Shown one piece after another: positions 2,822-36,345 of a stretch of DNA of 41,072 nt. The position numbers and the translations under genes were made by a program. The stretch is from Kagunavirus LF7074P1. The stretch lies in sequence record OZ035752.1; one strand, given 5' to 3'. Numbering within the stretch: the first letter of the stretch is position 1; each line of letters starts with the position of its first letter. Under the pieces are notes generated by a model. It was not told where the DNA came from. It saw nothing but the letters and a program-made list of their open reading frames with translations, and ran no database searches.

Positions 2822-3898
2822 ATGCTATTAACTTTAGCGCCACAGGGTTTATCTATGAGCTTACTTACATCACTAATCAGCCACCAGATATGGCTGCAAC
2901 GAACCGCATCCGGTGAGGTGAAAGACCTCGCGCCGTTCATTAAGGAGATGCGGGACGAAATCAAACGGCAGGTGCTGCTATTCGGCGACGGCGGTCGCAG
3001 CACTGCGCGACTGAATAAACTGTTACGTGACCTTGAAGAAGCACTGACAGGACTTACTGGTGACTGGCAAACAAAGCTGGCAGAAGACCTCAAGGAACTG
3101 GCGGTGTATGAAGCTGAGTGGAACGTAAAGACCCTGACCGCCAACGTAGATGCGGAATTTGTTACGCCCACCGCCGAACAGGTGTGGGCCGCTGCTGAGT
3201 TTCAGCCATTATCATTGAGTGGCAAGCCAGTTGATTTCACTAAACTGATGTCAGGTTGGGGTGAAACGGAAGTAGCACGTCTTGTAACCGGCGTTAAGAT
3301 GGGCTTTGTACAAGGTCAAACAACACGGCAGATTGTTAAGAATGTAGTAGGCGCCGGTGGGCTGGCTGACATCTCTGAGCGTAACGCCGCTACCGTCATC
3401 CGCACCGCGCTGTCTCACGTGTCCAACGAAGCCCGTAACGAGACGTACCGCCAGAACGACGACATCATCGAGAAGTACGAGTGGGTGTCAACGCTGGACA
3501 GCCGTACCAGTACGATTTGCAGAGCCAGAGACGGAATGACGTGGGAAATTGGTAAAGGGCCGATGCCCCCTGCCCATCCGAACTGCCGGTCGTGCACGGC
3601 TCCGGTAATCAGTTCCGAGTTCGACTTCCTCGATAAAGGCGCAAAACGCGCGGCTAAGGGCGCCGAAGGCGGTACTCAGGTAAGTGCGGACACCACCTAT
3701 TACGAGTTCCTGAAACAACAACCGGCATGGTTTCAGGACCAGGCGCTCGGCCCTGTTCGCGGTAAGATTTTCCGTAACAGCGGTATATCGCCGGAAGAGT
3801 TTCGCGTAATATCTGTAGATGGTTTCGGGAACCCGCTGACGCTTAAGCAGATGGCGGAACTCGATAAACGTGTTGCTGATTATCTGAAAGGGGAATAA
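2822..3898 (+). CDS. minor head / head morphogenesis protein (putative)
   Basis: 358-aa ORF directly after portal (position of Mu F / SPP1 gp7-type genes); in-frame alternative ATG at 2855; stop overlaps next start (TAATG). Confidence 0.5.
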   Translation: MLLTLAPQGLSMSLLTSLISHQIWLQRTASGEVKDLAPFIKEMRDEIKRQVLLFGDGGRSTARLNKLLRDLEEALTGLTGDWQTKLAEDLKELAVYEAEWNVKTLTANVDAEFVTPTAEQVWAAAEFQPLSLSGKPVDFTKLMSGWGETEVARLVTGVKMGFVQGQTTRQIVKNVVGAGGLADISERNAATVIRTALSHVSNEARNETYRQNDDIIEKYEWVSTLDSRTSTICRARDGMTWEIGKGPMPPAHPNCRSCTAPVISSEFDFLDKGAKRAAKGAEGGTQVSADTTYYEFLKQQPAWFQDQALGPVRGKIFRNSGISPEEFRVISVDGFGNPLTLKQMAELDKRVADYLKGE

Positions 3899-4359
3899 TG
3901 ATGGGCTTTTTCAAAGTAACTGACGTACCGTCTCGTCGCGTAGTCCAGTACGCCCGCGTGTCTGGCTCTGGCGAGAACGTGGTGTTTATTGAAGACGAAA
4001 GTGTACTCGGAACACCAGTGGACGATATGCCGTTTGCGGACAAGACCGGTATTGCGCTGCCAGCGGCAGGTATGCTTTATGAGATTCAGTACCTGGCGGA
4101 TGCTGGTGATGTGTATTTCTCCGTACAACCGCAGGACGCTGAACTGGCAGACGGCAGCGCAAATATCGCTGTCGAAGTTAAGGCGGGCAAAGCACCATAT
4201 GCGCTGACCTGGTACAAAGACGGGAAGGAAGTGGTAAACGCCCCGGAAGAGGCTCTGTCTCTGACGGTTAACGCAGTTGGTGAATACTTCGTTAAAGTCA
4301 CTGATGCCGATGGTATAGAGGCCGTAAGTAAAGCAGCGAAGGTTACTAAGCCAGAATAA
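3898..4359 (+). CDS. hypothetical virion-associated protein
   Basis: 153-aa ORF, RBS GGGGA, start overlaps upstream stop; C-terminal beta-rich segment (YALTWYKDGKEVV..GEYFVKVTDADG) resembles Ig-like domains; strong terminator follows. Confidence 0.5.
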   Translation: MMGFFKVTDVPSRRVVQYARVSGSGENVVFIEDESVLGTPVDDMPFADKTGIALPAAGMLYEIQYLADAGDVYFSVQPQDAELADGSANIAVEVKAGKAPYALTWYKDGKEVVNAPEEALSLTVNAVGEYFVKVTDADGIEAVSKAAKVTKPE

Positions 4360-4363
4360 ACTG

Positions 4364-4384
4364 AAGCCCCGAAAGGGGCTTTTT
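4364..4384 (+). terminator. intrinsic terminator
   Basis: AAGCCCC-GAAA-GGGGCTT stem-loop followed by TTTT. Confidence 0.7.
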
Positions 4385-4423
4385 AGTGCCTGTGATTATT
4401 CCAGTTATTCCACTCAATTGTAA

Positions 4424-4477
4424 ATGTTGGAATAAACTATTCGAATAGTTGACTTTTCACCAAAAATGTGCTAAGCT
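4424..4477 (+). promoter_or_regulatory. promoter-like element with upstream palindromic site
   Basis: half-sites GAATAA (4430-4435), CTATTC (4437-4442), GAATAG (4443-4448) including perfect palindrome AACTATTCGAATAGTT (4435-4450) abutting -35 TTGACT (4449-4454); 17-bp spacer; TGc-TAAGCT extended -10-like (4469-4477). Confidence 0.4.
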
Positions 4478-4657
4478 CCACCTGAGCTTGTGAAGTATGA
4501 ACAAGCGACCGCGGCGCGGGCAGGTAACGGAGCGGGACGTAAGTCCTGAGTGTAGTTACGCTGACGCGTTCGGAAGGGCCATACTCTATTGCTTGTGTAA
4601 AAAGTAACTGGTTTACTGAGATTACGCCGTTTCTATGTTTAAATGATAAGGACTAGC

Positions 4658-4683
4658 GCCCCGCTTTAAGGCGGGGCTTTACT
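4658..4683 (+). terminator. terminator-like hairpin upstream of Rz-like gene
   Basis: GCCCCGC-TTTAAG-GCGGGGC stem-loop followed by TTTACTT. Confidence 0.5.
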
Positions 4684-4701
4684 TATCGAGAAAGGGGAAA
4701 C

Positions 4702-5088
4702 ATGAATCTTAAAGCAACTGTCGTAGCGGGAGCATGTTTCATCATCCTGGCTTACGCACACGGCATCTACCAGTATCGCAGCGGCTGGAACGGAGGCCGG
4801 GCGAATCTCGTTTCGCAGCAACAGCAGAAAGCACAGGCTGAGTTAGCTAAGAAAACACAACGGCAGCGGCAGGATGAATCGAAGGCCGCCGCCGCTGATA
4901 ACGAAGGCAAGACGAAATCAGAGGTAATCACCCGTGAAGTCGTTAAGTACATTAAAACGCCTGGCCGCAGCGTGTGCACTTTTGACCCTGAGCGCGTGCA
5001 GCTCAAGTCCCGCGCCGTCGCAAACGCCAATTCCATCCCCGGATACGACGATGATGCAGCCGCCGTGCAAACTGGCACTGCCAAGTAA
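4702..5088 (+). CDS. Rz-like inner-membrane spanin (putative)
   Basis: 128 aa; RBS AAAGGGGAAA; single N-terminal TM segment (TVVAGACFIILAYAHGIY) then Q/A/K/E-rich region; overlapped by +1-frame lipoprotein ORF. Confidence 0.6.
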   Translation: MNLKATVVAGACFIILAYAHGIYQYRSGWNGGRANLVSQQQQKAQAELAKKTQRQRQDESKAAAADNEGKTKSEVITREVVKYIKTPGRSVCTFDPERVQLKSRAVANANSIPGYDDDAAAVQTGTAK

Positions 5089-5197
5089 CGACGCGGACGA
5101 GGATTTAGCTATTGACGTCCAGAACGCAGAATGTGTACGGCAACTGAGACTTAAAGTGTTCATGTTGCAGGATTACGTGAGGAATATTCTGGAATAG
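4934..5197 (+). CDS. Rz1-like outer-membrane lipoprotein spanin (putative)
   Basis: 87 aa; GTG start with RBS GAGGT 8 nt upstream; signal peptide with lipobox LSAC; Pro-rich mature region with second Cys; starts inside and extends past Rz-like ORF in another frame. Confidence 0.6.
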   Translation: MKSLSTLKRLAAACALLTLSACSSSPAPSQTPIPSPDTTMMQPPCKLALPSNDADEDLAIDVQNAECVRQLRLKVFMLQDYVRNILE

Positions 5198-5206
5198 TTG
5201 CCTTGT

Positions 5207-5253
5207 ATGTTGGAATAATTTATTCTTGACATGTAAATCCGGGTGGCCCGGAT
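5207..5253 (+). promoter_or_regulatory. promoter-like element / palindromes upstream of scaffold gene
   Basis: block ATGTTGGAATAAtTTATTC (palindrome GAATAA-t-TTATTC 5213-5225) homologous to 4424-4442, followed by TTGACA (5226-5231) and inverted repeat ATCCGGG-tgg-CCCGGAT (5237-5253). Confidence 0.35.
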
Positions 5254-5276
5254 TCCAACGTCCAGGGGACATACTG

Positions 5277-5903
5277 ATGAGCGAAGAAGTGAAAGACGAA
5301 ACTATCGAACAACAAGAGACTAAGACCACGTTTACCAAAGAAGAAGTTGACGCGCTGGTATCCGGTCTTAAAGCTAACAACGAGAAACTCTTGTCTGAAA
5401 AGAAAGCTGCCGCCGCTGCCGCGAAAGAAGCCGCAGATGCGAAGCTGAAAGCCGAACAGGAACGCGCAAAACAGAACGGCGAACTTGAGGCATTCGAGAA
5501 AACGTTGCGCAGTCAGTATGAGCCAGTACTCGCCGAGAAAGACGGTAAGATTAGCAAAATGGCTGAGCGTATCCTCGGCGCAGAACGTAAATCAGTTATC
5601 AGCCAGTTGTCTGGCATGTTGATTGATGCGAGCGCAGCGGATATTATCGCTATGATGGTCAAGACCGAATTTGACGGCGATGACGTTGTGACCAAGTTCA
5701 CAGGTGCAGATGGTAATGTCATCACCACCGACGCAGAGCAATTTAAAAAGTATCTGCGTGAGCACAAAGCATTTTCGCATCTGATTAAAGCAGATGCAGC
5801 AACCGGCGGCGGGGCTTCCGGTAACAAAAATTCTACTGGCGGGGCCGGTGGTGCGGACGTAATCCAGCAAAAACTTAACGCCAAATACGGCAAACGAGGA
5901 TAA
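5277..5903 (+). CDS. scaffolding protein (putative)
   Basis: 208 aa from ATG 5277 (RBS GGGGA); Ala/Lys/Glu-rich coiled-coil-like sequence; immediately upstream of capsid gene; ORF-track start 5226 is a TTG without RBS. Confidence 0.55.
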   Translation: MSEEVKDETIEQQETKTTFTKEEVDALVSGLKANNEKLLSEKKAAAAAAKEAADAKLKAEQERAKQNGELEAFEKTLRSQYEPVLAEKDGKISKMAERILGAERKSVISQLSGMLIDASAADIIAMMVKTEFDGDDVVTKFTGADGNVITTDAEQFKKYLREHKAFSHLIKADAATGGGASGNKNSTGGAGGADVIQQKLNAKYGKRG

Positions 5904-5909
5904 CAGAAT

Positions 5910-6878
5910 ATGTCTCTGTCAGATATGAAGGTTTATAACGACGATATCGTCGGTACCACTATCGAACTGCTTGGCCAGAAAACTGACCAGTTTAACGCAG
6001 CCTCCGGTGGCGCAATTGTACTGTCTACCGCTTCATGGCGCGGTGACTTCTCCCGTGAGTCTTTCTTTAACCAGATTGCCTCCGCTAAACGCCGCGTTGA
6101 CCGTTACGCCGATATCGCGTCTCAGGCAGCTACCGCGCTGACTCAGGGCGAGCATGTAGGCGTTAAAGTCGCTGGCGGCTTCGGACCGGTACTGTTCGAG
6201 CCTGCGCAAATGACCTGGCTGAACGAAGACCCGGCGAGCGCGATTCGTGCTATCTCCGAAGGGTTCTCTGACGCACTGTTAGCTGACCAGCTTAACACCG
6301 CTGTTGGTGCCGCCGTTGCCGCGGTATCAGGTCAGACTGCACTGGTTAACGATGTATCCGCGACCGCTGGCTTGACCCTGAACGTGCTGAACAACAGCCA
6401 CGCTAAATTCGGCGACCAGTCTCAGTTGTTGGTCACTGACATCATGACCGGCGCGGCCTACCACACTCTGGTGGACAAAGCGCTGACCAACGCAAACCAG
6501 TTGTTCGTTGCTGGCAACGTTATGGTTGTCGATGTTCTCGGCAAGCGTTACGTAATCTCTGACATTCCTGCGCTGTACGAGGCCGGTACTCCGAACAAGA
6601 CTAAGGTCCTGTCCGTAGTTGCAAACGGCATCATCGTTGATAATGCTTCTGACATTATCAGCAACATTGACACCAGCAACGGTAACACCCGCATCCAGAC
6701 CACCTGGCAGGCGGACTACAGCTTCGGCCTGAAACTGAAAGGCTACAGCTGGGACGTTACCAACGGCGGTAAATCTCCGCTGGACGCAGAACTGTTCACC
6801 GCGACTAACTGGGTCAAAGCTGTTGCCGAGAACAAGCACACCCTCGGTACTCTGGCAATCGCCGACGCGGACAAGTGA
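5910..6878 (+). CDS. major capsid protein (putative)
   Basis: 322-aa ORF after scaffold-like gene and followed by strong terminator; assignment by position only. Confidence 0.6.
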   Translation: MSLSDMKVYNDDIVGTTIELLGQKTDQFNAASGGAIVLSTASWRGDFSRESFFNQIASAKRRVDRYADIASQAATALTQGEHVGVKVAGGFGPVLFEPAQMTWLNEDPASAIRAISEGFSDALLADQLNTAVGAAVAAVSGQTALVNDVSATAGLTLNVLNNSHAKFGDQSQLLVTDIMTGAAYHTLVDKALTNANQLFVAGNVMVVDVLGKRYVISDIPALYEAGTPNKTKVLSVVANGIIVDNASDIISNIDTSNGNTRIQTTWQADYSFGLKLKGYSWDVTNGGKSPLDAELFTATNWVKAVAENKHTLGTLAIADADK

Positions 6879-6897: not shown

Positions 6898-6919
6898 AAA
6901 GGGGCTTCGGCCCCTTTTT
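6898..6919 (+). terminator. intrinsic terminator
   Basis: AAAGGGGC-TTCG-GCCCCTTT stem-loop followed by TTTTT, directly after capsid gene. Confidence 0.8.
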
Positions 6920-6935
6920 ACTAGGAGAAATTAAA

Positions 6936-13016: not shown

Positions 13017-13031
13017 TGTTGGTGTAAGTGA

Positions 13032-13060
13032 ATAGTACCCTATTATATTGGGGTGTGCAA
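13032..13060 (-). promoter_or_regulatory. sigma70-like promoter with palindromic operator
   Basis: minus-strand TTGCAC-17 bp-TACTAT; operator AATAG-N4-CTATT at 13031-13044; near-identical to plus-strand promoter at 35040-35068. Confidence 0.55.
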
Positions 13061-28920: not shown

Positions 28921-28949
28921 ACTATAATAGCTAACTATTCAGGTGTCAA
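28921..28949 (-). promoter_or_regulatory. sigma70-like promoter with palindromic operator
   Basis: minus-strand TTGACA-17 bp-TATAGT; operator AATAG-N4-CTATT at 28926-28939. Confidence 0.55.
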
Positions 28950-31422: not shown

Positions 31423-31451
31423 ACTATAATAGCGAACTATTCACTTGTCAA
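31423..31451 (-). promoter_or_regulatory. sigma70-like promoter with palindromic operator
   Basis: minus-strand TTGACA-17 bp-TATAGT; operator AATAG-N4-CTATT at 31428-31441. Confidence 0.55.
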
Positions 31452-31470
31452 TGGGCTTTTCTAAAATAAT

Positions 31471-31484
31471 TAATATGGTACTAT
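31471..31484 (+). promoter_or_regulatory. extended -10 promoter-like element
   Basis: TGgTACTAT with operator-like AATAT-N4-CTATT; about 30 nt upstream of HTH gene. Confidence 0.35.
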
Positions 31485-31515
31485 TCACATATCAACTGAC
31501 TAAGGAGTAATTGAC

Positions 31516-35039: not shown

Positions 35040-35068
35040 TTGCACACCCCAACATAATAGGATACTAT
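35040..35068 (+). promoter_or_regulatory. sigma70-like promoter with palindromic operator
   Basis: TTGCAC-17 bp-TACTAT; operator AATAG-N4-CTATT at 35056-35069; leader AAACGAGACAGAGGAG. Confidence 0.55.
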
Positions 35069-35102
35069 TCACTTATCGAAACGAGACAGAGGAGTGAGGG
35101 TT

Positions 35103-36285: not shown

Positions 36286-36314
36286 TTGCACACTAAGATA
36301 GAATAGGCTACTAT
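36286..36314 (+). promoter_or_regulatory. sigma70-like promoter with palindromic operator
   Basis: TTGCAC-17 bp-TACTAT; operator GAATAG-N4-CTATTC at 36301-36316; leader AAACGAGAGGGGAG. Confidence 0.55.
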
Positions 36315-36345
36315 TCATTTACACAAACGAGAGGGGAGACAGAAT

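What the first reader, a model, noticed from the sequence alone, without database searches (positions are those of the whole stretch)
4424..4683. Promoter-to-terminator unit without long ORF between virion genes (candidate sRNA or 36-aa peptide), with duplicated operator block
Between the terminator at 4364-4384 and the Rz-like gene there are about 340 bp with no ORF of 60 aa or more on either strand. It contains a palindrome-rich site (perfect 16-bp palindrome AACTATTCGAATAGTT at 4435-4450) abutting a -35 TTGACT, an extended -10-like TGcTAAGCT, and about 180 nt later a GC-rich terminator-like hairpin (4658-4683). The only coding possibility is a 36-codon ORF (4497-4607, MNKRPRRGQVTERD...) with a weak RBS. 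The block ATGTTGGAATAA..TATTC recurs at 5207-5225 directly upstream of TTGACA before the scaffold gene, suggesting two copies of an activator- or repressor-controlled late-type promoter.
Basis: seen in the sequence. Interest (0 to 1): 0.45.

Follow-up and report, generated by a model that had tools for sequence, protein, structure and literature searches.

The report
Structured leader RNA before phage spanins
This gap between head genes of an E. coli Kagunavirus phage holds a conserved promoter with repeated protein-binding motifs and a folded, non-coding RNA of about 220 nt that most likely leads into the spanin, scaffold and capsid genes; the 36-codon ORF is not a gene.

Summary
The window is a Kagunavirus (Guernseyvirinae) genome.

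Homologous spacers occur in Kagunavirus, Jerseyvirus and Cornellvirus, plus one uncultured variant. Comparison shows four things.
- **ORF:** the 36-codon ORF is not conserved. Its ATG is absent outside Kagunavirus, and indels break the frame within it.
- **RNA:** the plus-strand RNA keeps the same helices through compensatory changes. 96.7% of cells are paired, and 14 pairs changed on both sides against 5.7±1.1 in shuffles. Rfam has no match.
- **Hairpin:** the "terminator" GC stem is the tip of a long hairpin that ends one base before the Rz start codon. A U-tract follows it only in Kagunavirus.
- **Operator:** GGAATA/TATTCC half-sites cluster at only two places in 41 kb. One lies exactly 26 nt upstream of a conserved extended −10 (TGnTAnnCT). 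The other lies before the scaffold gene.

Best reading (confidence 0.55): a regulator-controlled promoter and a structured 5′ leader for the Rz/Rz1–scaffold–capsid transcription unit, with partial attenuation in Kagunavirus. A free-standing sRNA remains possible (0.2). No transcript data were available, so the promoter, read-through and function are inferred. I rate it a new member of a known kind, of moderate interest.

The parts
4364..4384 (+). Intrinsic terminator ending the upstream unit (Hoc-like head decoration gene, 3898-4359)
   Evidence: AAGCCCCGAAAGGGGCTTTTT. The same stem is listed on the minus strand. Annotated as a terminator in Shashou. PHROG assignment of the upstream gene.
4396..4411 (.). 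Distal operator: two direct repeats TTATTCC-AG-TTATTCC, centred about -80.5 from the predicted start
   Evidence: Exact match is unique in the window. Invariant across Kagunavirus, Jerseyvirus and Cornellvirus.
4429..4450 (.). Proximal operator: conserved inverted repeat GGAATAAACTATTC (4429-4442, centre about -48.5). Kagunavirus adds a third half-site, GAATAG, which makes the 16-bp palindrome at 4435-4450.
   Evidence: The repeat lies exactly 26 nt upstream of TGnTAnnCT in all three clades.
4449..4477 (+). Putative sigma-70 promoter: -35 TTGACT (4449-4454), 17-bp spacer, extended -10 TGcTAAGCT (4469-4477)
   Evidence: Read from the sequence. TGnTAnnCT is conserved (TGTTACGCT in Jerseyvirus, TGATAACCT in Cornellvirus). 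The -35 is degenerate in relatives: GTAGAC and GTGGAT. Activity was not tested.
4484..4701 (+). Non-coding structured leader RNA, about 218 nt, from the predicted start to the base before the Rz ATG
   Evidence: No Rfam family and no tRNA. Covariation. Invariant G-U pairs fix the plus strand.
4486..4506 (+). P1, a 5'-proximal hairpin (GCUUGU / ACAAGC)
   Evidence: A hairpin at the same place has an unrelated sequence in other clades: ACGCU/AGCGU in Jerseyvirus, UUCGU/ACGAA in Cornellvirus, AAGAUGC/GCAUCUU in L178.
4509..4573 (+). P2-P3, a long bipartite hairpin with a GUAA apical loop at 4539-4542
   Evidence: The covariance model built from Kagunavirus finds Jerseyvirus copies at E about 1e-5. 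Examples of pair changes: C-G to U-A in 8 of 20 distinct sequences, A-U to C-G/G-C in 8 of 20. Fold z-score is -2.76.
4570..4580 (+). Conserved block UUCGGAAGGGCC. Its last seven bases (4574-4580) are predicted to be single-stranded. Role unknown.
   Evidence: Identical in Kagunavirus and Jerseyvirus. CGGAAGGG is also present in Cornellvirus.
4497..4607 (+). 36-codon ORF, rejected as a gene
   Evidence: No ATG in Jerseyvirus or Cornellvirus. 1-nt indels in L141, L147 and L133, and helix-preserving changes in L136, shift the frame. Variable sites fall on codon positions 1 and 2. No PHROG hit.
4629..4701 (+). Long 3' hairpin. P6 is GUUUCU (4629-4634) paired with GGAAAC (4696-4701). P5 is 4645-4687, with outer stem GAUAAG/CUUAUC. 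The GC stem is 4658-4677, followed by UUUACUUAUC (4678-4687). The structure encloses part of the Rz Shine-Dalgarno sequence (4691-4697).
   Evidence: Fold z-scores are -3.83 (Kagunavirus), -3.10 (Jerseyvirus) and -3.35 (Cornellvirus). All 22 variants fold, at -14 to -31 kcal/mol. The outer stem is replaced by UAUACG/CGUAUA or GUAAUG/UGUUAC in other clades. GC-stem variants are GCCCCGC, GCCCAGC, GCCCUGC, GCCCGGC and GCCCGAC, each with a matching partner.
4702..5197 (+). Rz-like i-spanin (4702-5088) with embedded o-spanin (4934-5197)
   Evidence: phrog_2536, Rz-like spanin, E = 2.8e-56. Annotations in relatives.
5181..5226 (.). Second operator array: GGAATATTCTGGAATAG (5181-5197) and GGAATAATTTATTC (5212-5225).
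   Evidence: This stretch is 88% identical to Cornellvirus over 5201-5250 while flanking sequence is about 50-70%.
5236..5254 (+). Conserved hairpin AAUCCGGG-UGG-CCCGGAUU, 24 nt upstream of the scaffold ATG (5278)
   Evidence: The flanking pairs covary: ACACCGGG/CCCGGUGU in Jerseyvirus, AGCCGGG/CCCGGCU in Cornellvirus. Fold.
6899..6921 (+). Strong terminator after the major capsid gene (5910-6878), the likely end of the unit
   Evidence: AAAGGGGCTTCGGCCCCTTTTT. The same stem is listed on the minus strand.

Best explanation
Window 4396-4701 is a conserved regulatory module of Guernseyvirinae siphophages.

Proposed parts and how they work:
1. An array of GGAATA/TATTCC half-sites sits upstream of the promoter: a direct pair centred near -80 and an inverted pair near -48. 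It is probably bound by a phage-encoded DNA-binding protein.
2. An extended -10 sigma-70 promoter follows. It has a good -35 only in Kagunavirus.
3. Transcription should start near 4484 and produce a non-coding, highly folded leader of about 218 nt.
4. The leader consists of a 5' hairpin (P1), a long bipartite hairpin (P2-P3), a linker with conserved single-stranded blocks, and a long 3' hairpin (P5/P6).
5. The base of the 3' hairpin ends one nucleotide before the Rz start codon and partly covers its ribosome-binding site.
6. The transcript most likely continues through Rz/Rz1, the scaffold gene and the major capsid gene to the strong terminator at 6899-6921.
7. The leader probably acts in cis. 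Candidate roles are 5' hairpin protection of the mRNA, a structure that limits Rz translation, and possibly an RNase III target.
8. In Kagunavirus only, the GC stem followed by UUUACUUAUC probably stops a fraction of transcripts (attenuation). That would release an RNA of about 195-200 nt as a by-product.
9. The 36-codon ORF is not a gene.

Shown here: conservation, covariation, breakage of the ORF, uniqueness of the operator motif, and the strand. Inferred: promoter activity and start site, protein binding, read-through, and every functional role of the leader.
For: Origin and synteny: Kagunavirus, with the module between the Hoc-like gene and its terminator and the Rz gene.

Operator and promoter:
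- Architecture is conserved in 3 genera and found in 48 viral-contig (IMG/VR) loci, with a fixed 26-nt distance to TGnTAnnCT.
- Only two GGAATA clusters exist in 41 kb.
- The -35 is poor in Jerseyvirus and Cornellvirus, which fits dependence on an activator.

RNA structure:
- The Kagunavirus-built covariance model finds Jerseyvirus copies.
- 96.7% of cells are paired, against 26-42% when partners are slid by 1-3 columns.
- 14 pairs changed on both sides against 5.7±1.1 in shuffles, with 0 of 500 shuffles reaching the observed value.
- P1, P3, P5 and the GC stem are rebuilt with different sequences in each clade and in L178.
- The 3' domain is stable relative to shuffles, with z from -3.1 to -3.8 in three clades.

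Not a conserved terminator: the tail is CUUAGCGUAUAAAG in Jerseyvirus and ACUGUUACG in Cornellvirus.

Operon logic: strong terminators lie at 4364-4384 and 6899-6921. No consensus promoter lies between the hairpin and Rz. The scaffold and capsid genes therefore need input from this promoter, or from the weak one at 5198-5226.

Position: the leader is always directly upstream of the spanin gene. Other Guernseyvirinae-like phages have unrelated long spacers at the same position.
Against: - No transcript data. The start site, read-through and promoter activity are all untested.
- The -10 hexamer matches consensus at only 3 of 6 positions, and the consensus scan does not list the promoter.
- The alignment used for pair counting was fitted to the model, which favours the structure.
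- Effective diversity is three clades plus one variant. The model detects Cornellvirus only marginally (E = 0.81).
- Occlusion of the ribosome-binding site is clear in Kagunavirus and the L165/L178 type but weak in Jerseyvirus full-context folds and in L009-type Cornellvirus.
- In Kagunavirus the hairpin plus UUUACUU could be an efficient terminator, which would favour a discrete sRNA.
- The purpose of the conserved single-stranded blocks is unexplained by a simple stabiliser model.
Confidence: 0.55

Rival explanations
1. A free-standing phage small RNA gene. The promoter at 4449-4477 makes a discrete RNA of about 195-200 nt. It ends at the hairpin (by termination in Kagunavirus, by processing in other genera) and acts in trans on host or phage targets or proteins.
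For: - Promoter, folded RNA and hairpin form a compact unit.
- Conserved single-stranded blocks (UUCGGAAGGGCC, UAUUGCUU, GAUUACGCCGU) could be seed or protein-binding sites.
- The module has been exchanged as a block between genera: 94-100% identity over 4351-4800 in ER11.
Against: - The U-tract is absent in Jerseyvirus and Cornellvirus.
- The 3' hairpin runs up to the Rz start codon and includes part of its Shine-Dalgarno sequence.
- The RNA is never found apart from the spanin gene.
- There is no similarity to any Rfam sRNA or to E. coli genomes.
- There is no long U tail of the kind that, from established knowledge, Hfq-dependent sRNAs carry.
Confidence: 0.2
2. An antitermination leader. 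Either it resembles lambda PR'-6S RNA-tR' (a short terminated transcript unless a phage factor modifies RNA polymerase at the promoter), or it resembles HK022 put (the nascent two-hairpin RNA itself makes polymerase resistant to terminators).
For: - Same layout as lambda: a promoter, roughly 200 nt of non-coding RNA, a terminator-like hairpin, then Rz/Rz1 and head genes.
- A -10-like hexamer sits at the start of the transcript in Kagunavirus (TGAGCT, 4483-4488) and Jerseyvirus (TACGCT) and could cause sigma-dependent pausing.
- Two adjacent hairpins lie right after the start, as in put.
Against: - No Q-like or N-like protein is annotated or found among the 20 small proteins scanned against Pfam.
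- The -10-like repeat is absent in Cornellvirus and L178.
- No U-tract, and so no terminator to overcome, exists in Jerseyvirus or Cornellvirus.
- No further intrinsic terminator lies before 6899.
- The covariance model finds nothing in the HK022 genome.
- The protein-binding array lies at -48 and -80, not where, from established knowledge, Q-binding elements sit.
Confidence: 0.1
3. The unit encodes the 36-aa peptide MNKRPRRGQVTERD... (4497-4607), as annotated in several GenBank records.
For: - It is annotated as a hypothetical protein in relatives.
- One reading frame across ...AFGRA.LYC... stays open in Kagunavirus and Jerseyvirus.
Against: - No start codon is present in Jerseyvirus or Cornellvirus. 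The Jerseyvirus annotation uses a GTG without a Shine-Dalgarno sequence.
- Frame-shifting indels occur in L141, L147 and L133, and L136 switches frame while keeping the helices.
- Within-genus changes fall on codon positions 1 and 2.
- The Kagunavirus peptide matches no PHROG, including the family of the Jerseyvirus ORF.
- The open frame is expected in G+C-rich helices.
Confidence: 0.03

Closest known systems
Lambda late leader (PR' - 6S RNA - tR', read through with Q)
   Same: A promoter is followed by roughly 200 nt of non-coding RNA and a terminator-like hairpin, placed directly upstream of lysis genes (here only Rz/Rz1) and head genes. A -10-like hexamer lies at the transcript start in two clades.
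   Different: No Q homologue was found. The U-tract is missing in two of three genera. The RNA secondary structure itself is conserved, which Q-type systems do not require. The repeats lie upstream of -35 (at -48 and -80), not at a Q-binding position.
HK022 put RNAs (cis-acting antiterminator RNA)
   Same: A pair of stable hairpins is transcribed immediately after a phage promoter and is conserved by structure.
   Different: No sequence or structure match in HK022. Little needs antitermination downstream. The activity cannot be tested here.
RNase III-processed phage leaders (lambda N leader, T7 intercistronic sites) and 5' stabiliser hairpins (ompA, T4 gene 32 type)
   Same: Long imperfect hairpins lie in an untranslated leader next to a ribosome-binding site. 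A hairpin sits within a few nucleotides of the predicted 5' end at both this site and the second site (5236-5254).
   Different: Cleavage or stabilisation is not shown. There is no sequence relationship. This comparison rests on established knowledge, not on a test here.
Phage early-to-late switch regulators with upstream arrays (phi29 p4, Mu C/Mor)
   Same: Repeated half-sites lie upstream of a promoter that lacks a good -35 in most relatives. A related motif (GAATAGT) sits inside the spacer of six other promoters in the genome, as expected for one protein that represses some promoters and activates another.
   Different: The binding protein is unknown. The half-site spacing differs between the two kinds of site. 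The second array (5181-5226) overlaps a weak promoter rather than lying upstream of one.

Membership tests
Intrinsic (Rho-independent) terminator | G+C-rich hairpin | tested here: met
   4658-4677 has 8 pairs, 7 of them G-C. It is conserved with compensatory changes.
Intrinsic (Rho-independent) terminator | U-rich tract immediately 3' of the hairpin | tested here: inconclusive
   Kagunavirus has UUUACUUAUC, which the scan accepts. This tract pairs with GAUAAG...UAG upstream as part of a longer stem.
Intrinsic (Rho-independent) terminator | U-tract conserved in homologues | tested here: not met
   Jerseyvirus has CUUAGCGUAUAAAG and Cornellvirus has ACUGUUACG.
Sigma-70 extended -10 promoter | TGn followed by a -10 hexamer with A at -11 and T at -7 | tested here: met
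   TGcTAAGCT at 4469-4477. TGnTAnnCT is present in all three clades at a fixed distance from the operator.
Sigma-70 extended -10 promoter | Transcription initiation in vivo or in vitro | not testable with these tools
   No transcript data. The one Kagunavirus RNA-seq paper found gives only gene-level classes.
Lambda-type Q antitermination unit | Q-family antiterminator gene in the genome | tested here: not met
   None is annotated in MT711525. No Q or N Pfam family was found in the 20 small proteins scanned. The scan was not exhaustive.
Lambda-type Q antitermination unit | -10-like pause element in the initial transcribed region | tested here: inconclusive
   TGAGCT in Kagunavirus and TACGCT in Jerseyvirus are present. 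Cornellvirus and L178 have none.
HK022 put RNA | Similarity to putL/putR | tested here: not met
   The model of this RNA finds no match in the HK022 genome at E up to 10. The reverse search, a put model against this RNA, was not possible.
HK022 put RNA | Cis-acting terminator read-through dependent on the RNA | not testable with these tools
   Needs in vitro transcription or reporter assays.
Small protein gene | Conserved ORF with a start codon, a ribosome-binding site and a coding substitution pattern | tested here: not met
Any Rfam 15 family | Covariance-model match | tested here: not met
   0 hits at gathering score over the whole window. The best E-value hits on 4380-4720 are 0.87-1.1 and unrelated.
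Conserved structured RNA (generic) | Base pairs kept through compensatory changes, on one strand | tested here: met
   One search gives 14 pairs with double changes, 0 of 500 shuffles as high, slid controls at 26-42% paired, and invariant G-U pairs on the plus strand. Caveats: the alignment was fitted to the model and there are few clades.
RNase III-processed leader | Long imperfect double-stranded stem (about two helical turns) | tested here: met
   The predicted hairpin at 4629-4701 has about 27 pairs.
RNase III-processed leader | Cleavage by RNase III | not testable with these tools
   Needs comparison of an rnc mutant with wild type, or in vitro cleavage.

The most novel reading that the evidence does not exclude
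The leader is a previously undescribed functional RNA class of Guernseyvirinae. It could be a factor-independent or regulator-assisted cis-acting switch that sets how much transcription and translation enters the spanin-scaffold-capsid unit. It could instead be a trans-acting sRNA released by attenuation or processing. Either way it would be coupled to a new phage regulator that reads GAATA arrays, both here (activation) and in the spacers of six other promoters (repression), forming the early-to-late switch of this phage group.
Probability: 0.2. Interest if true: 0.6.

Novelty: new member of a known kind. Interest (0 to 1): 0.4.

Why it matters
Guernseyvirinae (Kagunavirus, Jerseyvirus) are among the phages most often isolated for therapy and biocontrol against E. 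coli K1 and Salmonella. In the papers I could search, their transcriptional programme is essentially uncharacterised.

- **Annotation:** the finding removes a spurious "hypothetical protein" that is annotated in many GenBank records.
- **Candidate RNA family:** it defines a conserved structured RNA that is absent from Rfam.
- **Candidate switch:** it points to a compact, testable control region for the most highly expressed structural genes, made of an operator array and a promoter.

If the leader or the operator sets the ratio of spanin to capsid proteins or their timing, it would be useful for engineering these phages. It would not change general concepts of phage gene regulation.

Tried and rejected
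- **Rfam.** The gathering-score scan of the whole window and the E-value scan of 4380-4720 gave nothing meaningful.
- **tRNA/tmRNA.** None found. The "tRNA-Ser" annotated near the homologous site in phage templet lies on the other strand over the upstream terminator and looks spurious.
- **Peptide.** Rejected.
- **Host mimicry or prophage origin.** No blastn match in 5,426 E. coli genomes.
- **put-like similarity.** No hit in HK022.
- **Long-range helix AGUAUG/CAUACU from the single-sequence fold.** Rejected, because CAUACUC varies within Kagunavirus without compensation.
- **Anti-terminator pairing for the GC stem.** None found by inspection.
- **Second site as a TTGACA-based sigma-70 promoter.** Rejected, because no -10 lies at 16-18 bp in any clade.
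- **Extending the family.**
  - Relatives with 58-87% capsid identity lack both the operator and the RNA, or carry unrelated spacers.
It returned only five more Kagunavirus-type copies.
- **MAFFT/RNAalifold across clades.** It mis-registers the outer stems. I therefore used per-sequence folds and a covariance-model alignment instead.
- **Literature.**
  - One Kagunavirus RNA-seq paper (PMC12645636) has no coverage or expression table for this region.
  - Genome papers report only PHIRE/ARNold predictions.
  - No open-access paper on the MB78 promoters was found.
Full report
**What the window is.** The 351 bases around the finding are 95-100% identical to about 180 phage records. All are Guernseyvirinae: Kagunavirus of E. 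coli, some Salmonella phages, and Raoultella and Shigella phages. The window is nearly identical to Kagunavirus LF7074P1 and fKuEco01. The region lies between a Hoc-like, Ig-domain head decoration gene (3898-4359) with its terminator (4364-4384) and the Rz-like i-spanin (4702-5088; phrog_2536, E = 2.8e-56). The embedded o-spanin, the scaffold gene (5278-5903) and the major capsid gene (5910-6878) follow. A strong plus-strand terminator follows the capsid gene at 6899-6921.

**Observation check.**
- The 16-bp palindrome is at 4435-4450 and TTGACT is at 4449-4454.
- TGcTAAGCT is at 4469-4477, so the spacer is 17 bp.
- The GC hairpin at 4658-4677 is followed by TTTACTTATC.
- The 36-codon ORF is at 4497-4607, and no ORF of 60 aa or more lies on either strand.
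- The duplicated block is 19 nt at 89% identity, at 4424-4442 and 5207-5225.

Taken singly these are weak. About 0.6 palindromes of this length are expected in 41 kb by my calculation. The -10 matches only 3 of 6 positions, so the consensus scan does not report the promoter. The single-sequence fold of the whole RNA has a z-score of only -1.66. The case rests on comparison with relatives.

**Relatives.** Homologous spacers were collected from several sources:
- annotated phage records for Kagunavirus, Jerseyvirus (including the old MB78 fragment X87092) and Cornellvirus;
- 48 viral-contig loci found with an operator-promoter pattern;
- 80 loci around capsid homologues down to 58% identity.

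Three clades share the module. A fourth variant, L178, has a re-arranged version. More distant relatives either lack a spanin at this position or have long, unrelated spacers in front of it. Some Jerseyvirus genomes (ER11, FSL SP-101) carry the Kagunavirus-type module. It is 94-100% identical over 4351-4800, against 80-86% upstream and 45-80% downstream. The block has therefore been exchanged between genera.

**DNA level: operator and promoter.** All three clades share the same order of elements:
1. ATTATTCCAnTTATTCC;
2. 17 bp;
3. GGAATAnnnTATTC;
4. exactly 26 bp;
5. TGnTAnnCT.

With a start predicted at 4484, the inverted repeat is centred at -48.5 and the direct pair at -80.5. Jerseyvirus has GTAGAC and Cornellvirus GTGGAT at that place. 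A conserved extended -10, a weak -35 and upstream repeats are the usual signature of an activator-dependent promoter. This is an inference.

In the whole 41-kb window, GGAATA/TATTCC hexamers cluster only twice, at 4397-4442 and 5181-5225. GGAATAnnnTATTC occurs without mismatch only at these two places.

**The second site.**
- It is among the best conserved stretches of the region, at 88% identity to Cornellvirus.
- Its TTGACA has no -10 at 16-18 bp in any clade.
- A weak TTGCCT-17-TATTCT overlapping the inverted repeat is conserved.
- That promoter would start a transcript 2-4 nt before a conserved hairpin (5236-5254) whose flanking pairs covary.

The binding protein is unknown. The genome encodes three small HTH proteins: HTH_3, HTH_17 and NinH-like.

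**The ORF.** Jerseyvirus and Cornellvirus have no ATG at the homologous place. The Jerseyvirus ORF annotated in GenBank starts at a GTG without a Shine-Dalgarno sequence. Within Kagunavirus:
- L141 and L147 have a 1-nt deletion and L133 a 1-nt insertion;
- L136 replaces helix segments with compensating sequences and thereby changes frame;
- the variable patch GCC-ATA-CTC changes at codon positions 1 and 2.

The Kagunavirus peptide matches no PHROG, not even the family built from the Jerseyvirus ORF. The reading frame that stays open is what G+C-rich helices produce. The peptide is rejected.

**The RNA.** Per-clade consensus folds and single folds agree on the 5' half:
- P1, a 5'-proximal hairpin. 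It is GCUUGU/ACAAGC in Kagunavirus, ACGCU/AGCGU in Jerseyvirus, UUCGU/ACGAA in Cornellvirus and AAGAUGC/GCAUCUU in L178.
- P2-P3, a long bipartite hairpin with an apical stem-loop. The loop is often a GUAA tetraloop.

A covariance model built only from eight Kagunavirus sequences finds all Jerseyvirus copies at E from 4e-6 to 1.5e-4. On the resulting alignment of 20 distinct sequences:
- 96.7% of cells are paired, against 87.1% in shuffles and 26-42% when partners are slid by 1-3 columns;
- 14 of 29 pairs show changes on both sides, against 5.7±1.1 in shuffles, with 0 of 500 shuffles reaching the observed value.

Two invariant G-U pairs and several G-U/G-C alternations would be A-C mismatches on the other strand, so the plus strand is the functional one.

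Caveats: the alignment is fitted to the model, the sequences fall into few clades, and Cornellvirus is only marginally detected (E = 0.81). Rfam has no match, E. coli genomes have none, and HK022 has none.

**The terminator-like hairpin.** The GC stem at 4658-4677 is conserved with textbook compensation. Variants are GCCCCGC, GCCCAGC, GCCCUGC, GCCCGGC and GCCCGAC, each with the matching 3' strand. It is the tip of a longer hairpin.
- The outer stem is GAUAAG/CUUAUC in Kagunavirus, UAUACG/CGUAUA in Jerseyvirus and GUAAUG...UGUUAC in Cornellvirus.
- All 22 distinct variants fold, at -14 to -31 kcal/mol.
- In isolation the 3' domain folds into one hairpin closed by GUUUCU/GGAAAC in Kagunavirus or GUAU/AUAC in Jerseyvirus.
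- That closing helix ends at the base before the Rz AUG and covers part of the Shine-Dalgarno region.
- Z-scores are -3.83, -3.10 and -3.35 in the three clades.

The U-rich tail exists only in Kagunavirus (UUUACUUAUC), and there it is itself the 3' strand of the outer stem. Jerseyvirus has CUUAGCGUAUAAAG and Cornellvirus ACUGUUACG. The conserved feature is therefore a long hairpin next to the ribosome-binding site, not a terminator.

**Most likely mechanism.** Two strong terminators bracket the segment 4385-6921. No consensus promoter lies between the hairpin and Rz. The promoter at 4449-4477, perhaps helped by the weak one at 5198-5226, must therefore supply Rz/Rz1, scaffold and capsid mRNA, so most transcripts must pass the hairpin.

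I read the unit as a regulated promoter plus a structured 5' leader. Three roles for the leader are inferred, not shown:
1. The 5' hairpin would protect the mRNA.
2. The compact folding would keep Rho off a 218-nt untranslated stretch.
3. The 3' hairpin would restrain Rz translation and could be an RNase III site.

In Kagunavirus the partial U-tract probably adds attenuation, which would release an RNA of about 195-200 nt.

**Rivals.**
- *Free-standing sRNA.* This is the main rival. Conserved single-stranded blocks and block-wise exchange between genera favour it. The missing U-tract in two genera and the constant fusion to the Rz ribosome-binding site count against it.
- *Lambda-PR'-like or put-like antitermination unit.* The resemblance in layout is real. 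However, no Q-like or N-like protein is annotated or found among 20 small proteins, there is little to antiterminate, and the pause-like hexamer is not conserved in all clades.

**Novelty and scores.** I found no description of this RNA or of the GGAATA array in the searchable literature. One Kagunavirus genome paper reports a different repeated motif as "phage promoters". That motif corresponds to six other promoter-like repeats in this window. I rate the finding as a new member of a known kind: a phage cis-regulatory leader with an operator-controlled promoter. Interest is 0.4. The most novel reading still open is a new functional RNA class coupled to a GAATA-reading early-to-late switch protein, at about 0.2 probability.

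Noticed in passing
window 13029-13048(+), 28922-28941(-), 31424-31443(-), 31468-31487(-), 35052-35071(-), 36298-36317(-): There are six copies of a 20-nt block, TGAATAGTAnCCTATTATnT, against 0.01 expected. Each forms the spacer plus -10 of a sigma-70-like promoter, for example TTGACAccTGAATAGTTAGCTATTATAGT. Three copies share the downstream sequence GGGGTGTGCAAG. This is the PHIRE 'phage promoter' motif reported for fBC-Eco01. It shares GAATAGT with both operator arrays of the finding, so one regulator might read all of them.
   Followed up: partly
window 5198-5254: A weak promoter-like TTGCCT-17-TATTCT overlaps the second operator and is conserved in three genera. It is followed by a conserved hairpin, AAUCCGGG-UGG-CCCGGAUU, with covarying flanks, 24 nt before the scaffold start codon. 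This may be a second regulated start, or a stabiliser or translational operator for scaffold-capsid mRNA.
   Followed up: partly
L005 (Salmonella phage ER11) against window 4351-4800: A Jerseyvirus genome carries the Kagunavirus-type promoter, leader and first 100 nt of Rz at 94-100% identity. Flanking genes are 45-86% identical. This indicates recombinational exchange of the module between genera.
   Followed up: partly
L178 1261-1765 (IMGVR_UViG_3300045988_077398): This is a fourth variant. The GGAATA array is inverted and lies upstream of a terminator, about 190 bp from a consensus TATAAT. The leader has a different P1 (AAGAUGC/GCAUCUU) and a different P2-P3 (CAGGGAC...GGCC GUAA GGCC...GUCCCUG; fold z-score -6.2). 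Its 3' hairpins are of the Cornellvirus type.
   Followed up: partly
L008 1199-1483 (Klebsiella phage 37P2): The equivalent 284-nt spacer before the spanin gene carries a different repeat: TTGCGAG six times, including the palindrome GACTCGCAAAATTTTGCGAGTC. This suggests the same architecture with a different regulator specificity.
   Followed up: no
L002 1435-1512 (phage templet, NC_073180): A 'tRNA-Ser' is annotated on the minus strand across the end of the Hoc-like gene and its terminator. It is probably a false prediction. ARAGORN finds no tRNA in the window.
   Followed up: partly
L003 (X87092, Salmonella phage MB78) 1640-2311: The 1990s record annotates ribosomal frameshifting (p26/p28) in the homologue of the scaffold gene. 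It also has an extra G in the conserved GGAAGGG block, probably a sequencing error.
   Followed up: no
window 5278 against L001 3421: The scaffold gene of the window starts with ATGAGCGAAGAAG.... Most relatives start with ATGAATCGTTTTTTACG... at the same place, so the N-terminus has been replaced.
   Followed up: no
window 4395-4424 (-): The consensus scan lists a minus-strand promoter-like site, TTTACA-18-AATAAT with an upstream TG, inside the operator array. It points into the bidirectional terminator at 4364-4384. It is probably a by-product of the A+T-rich repeats.
   Followed up: no
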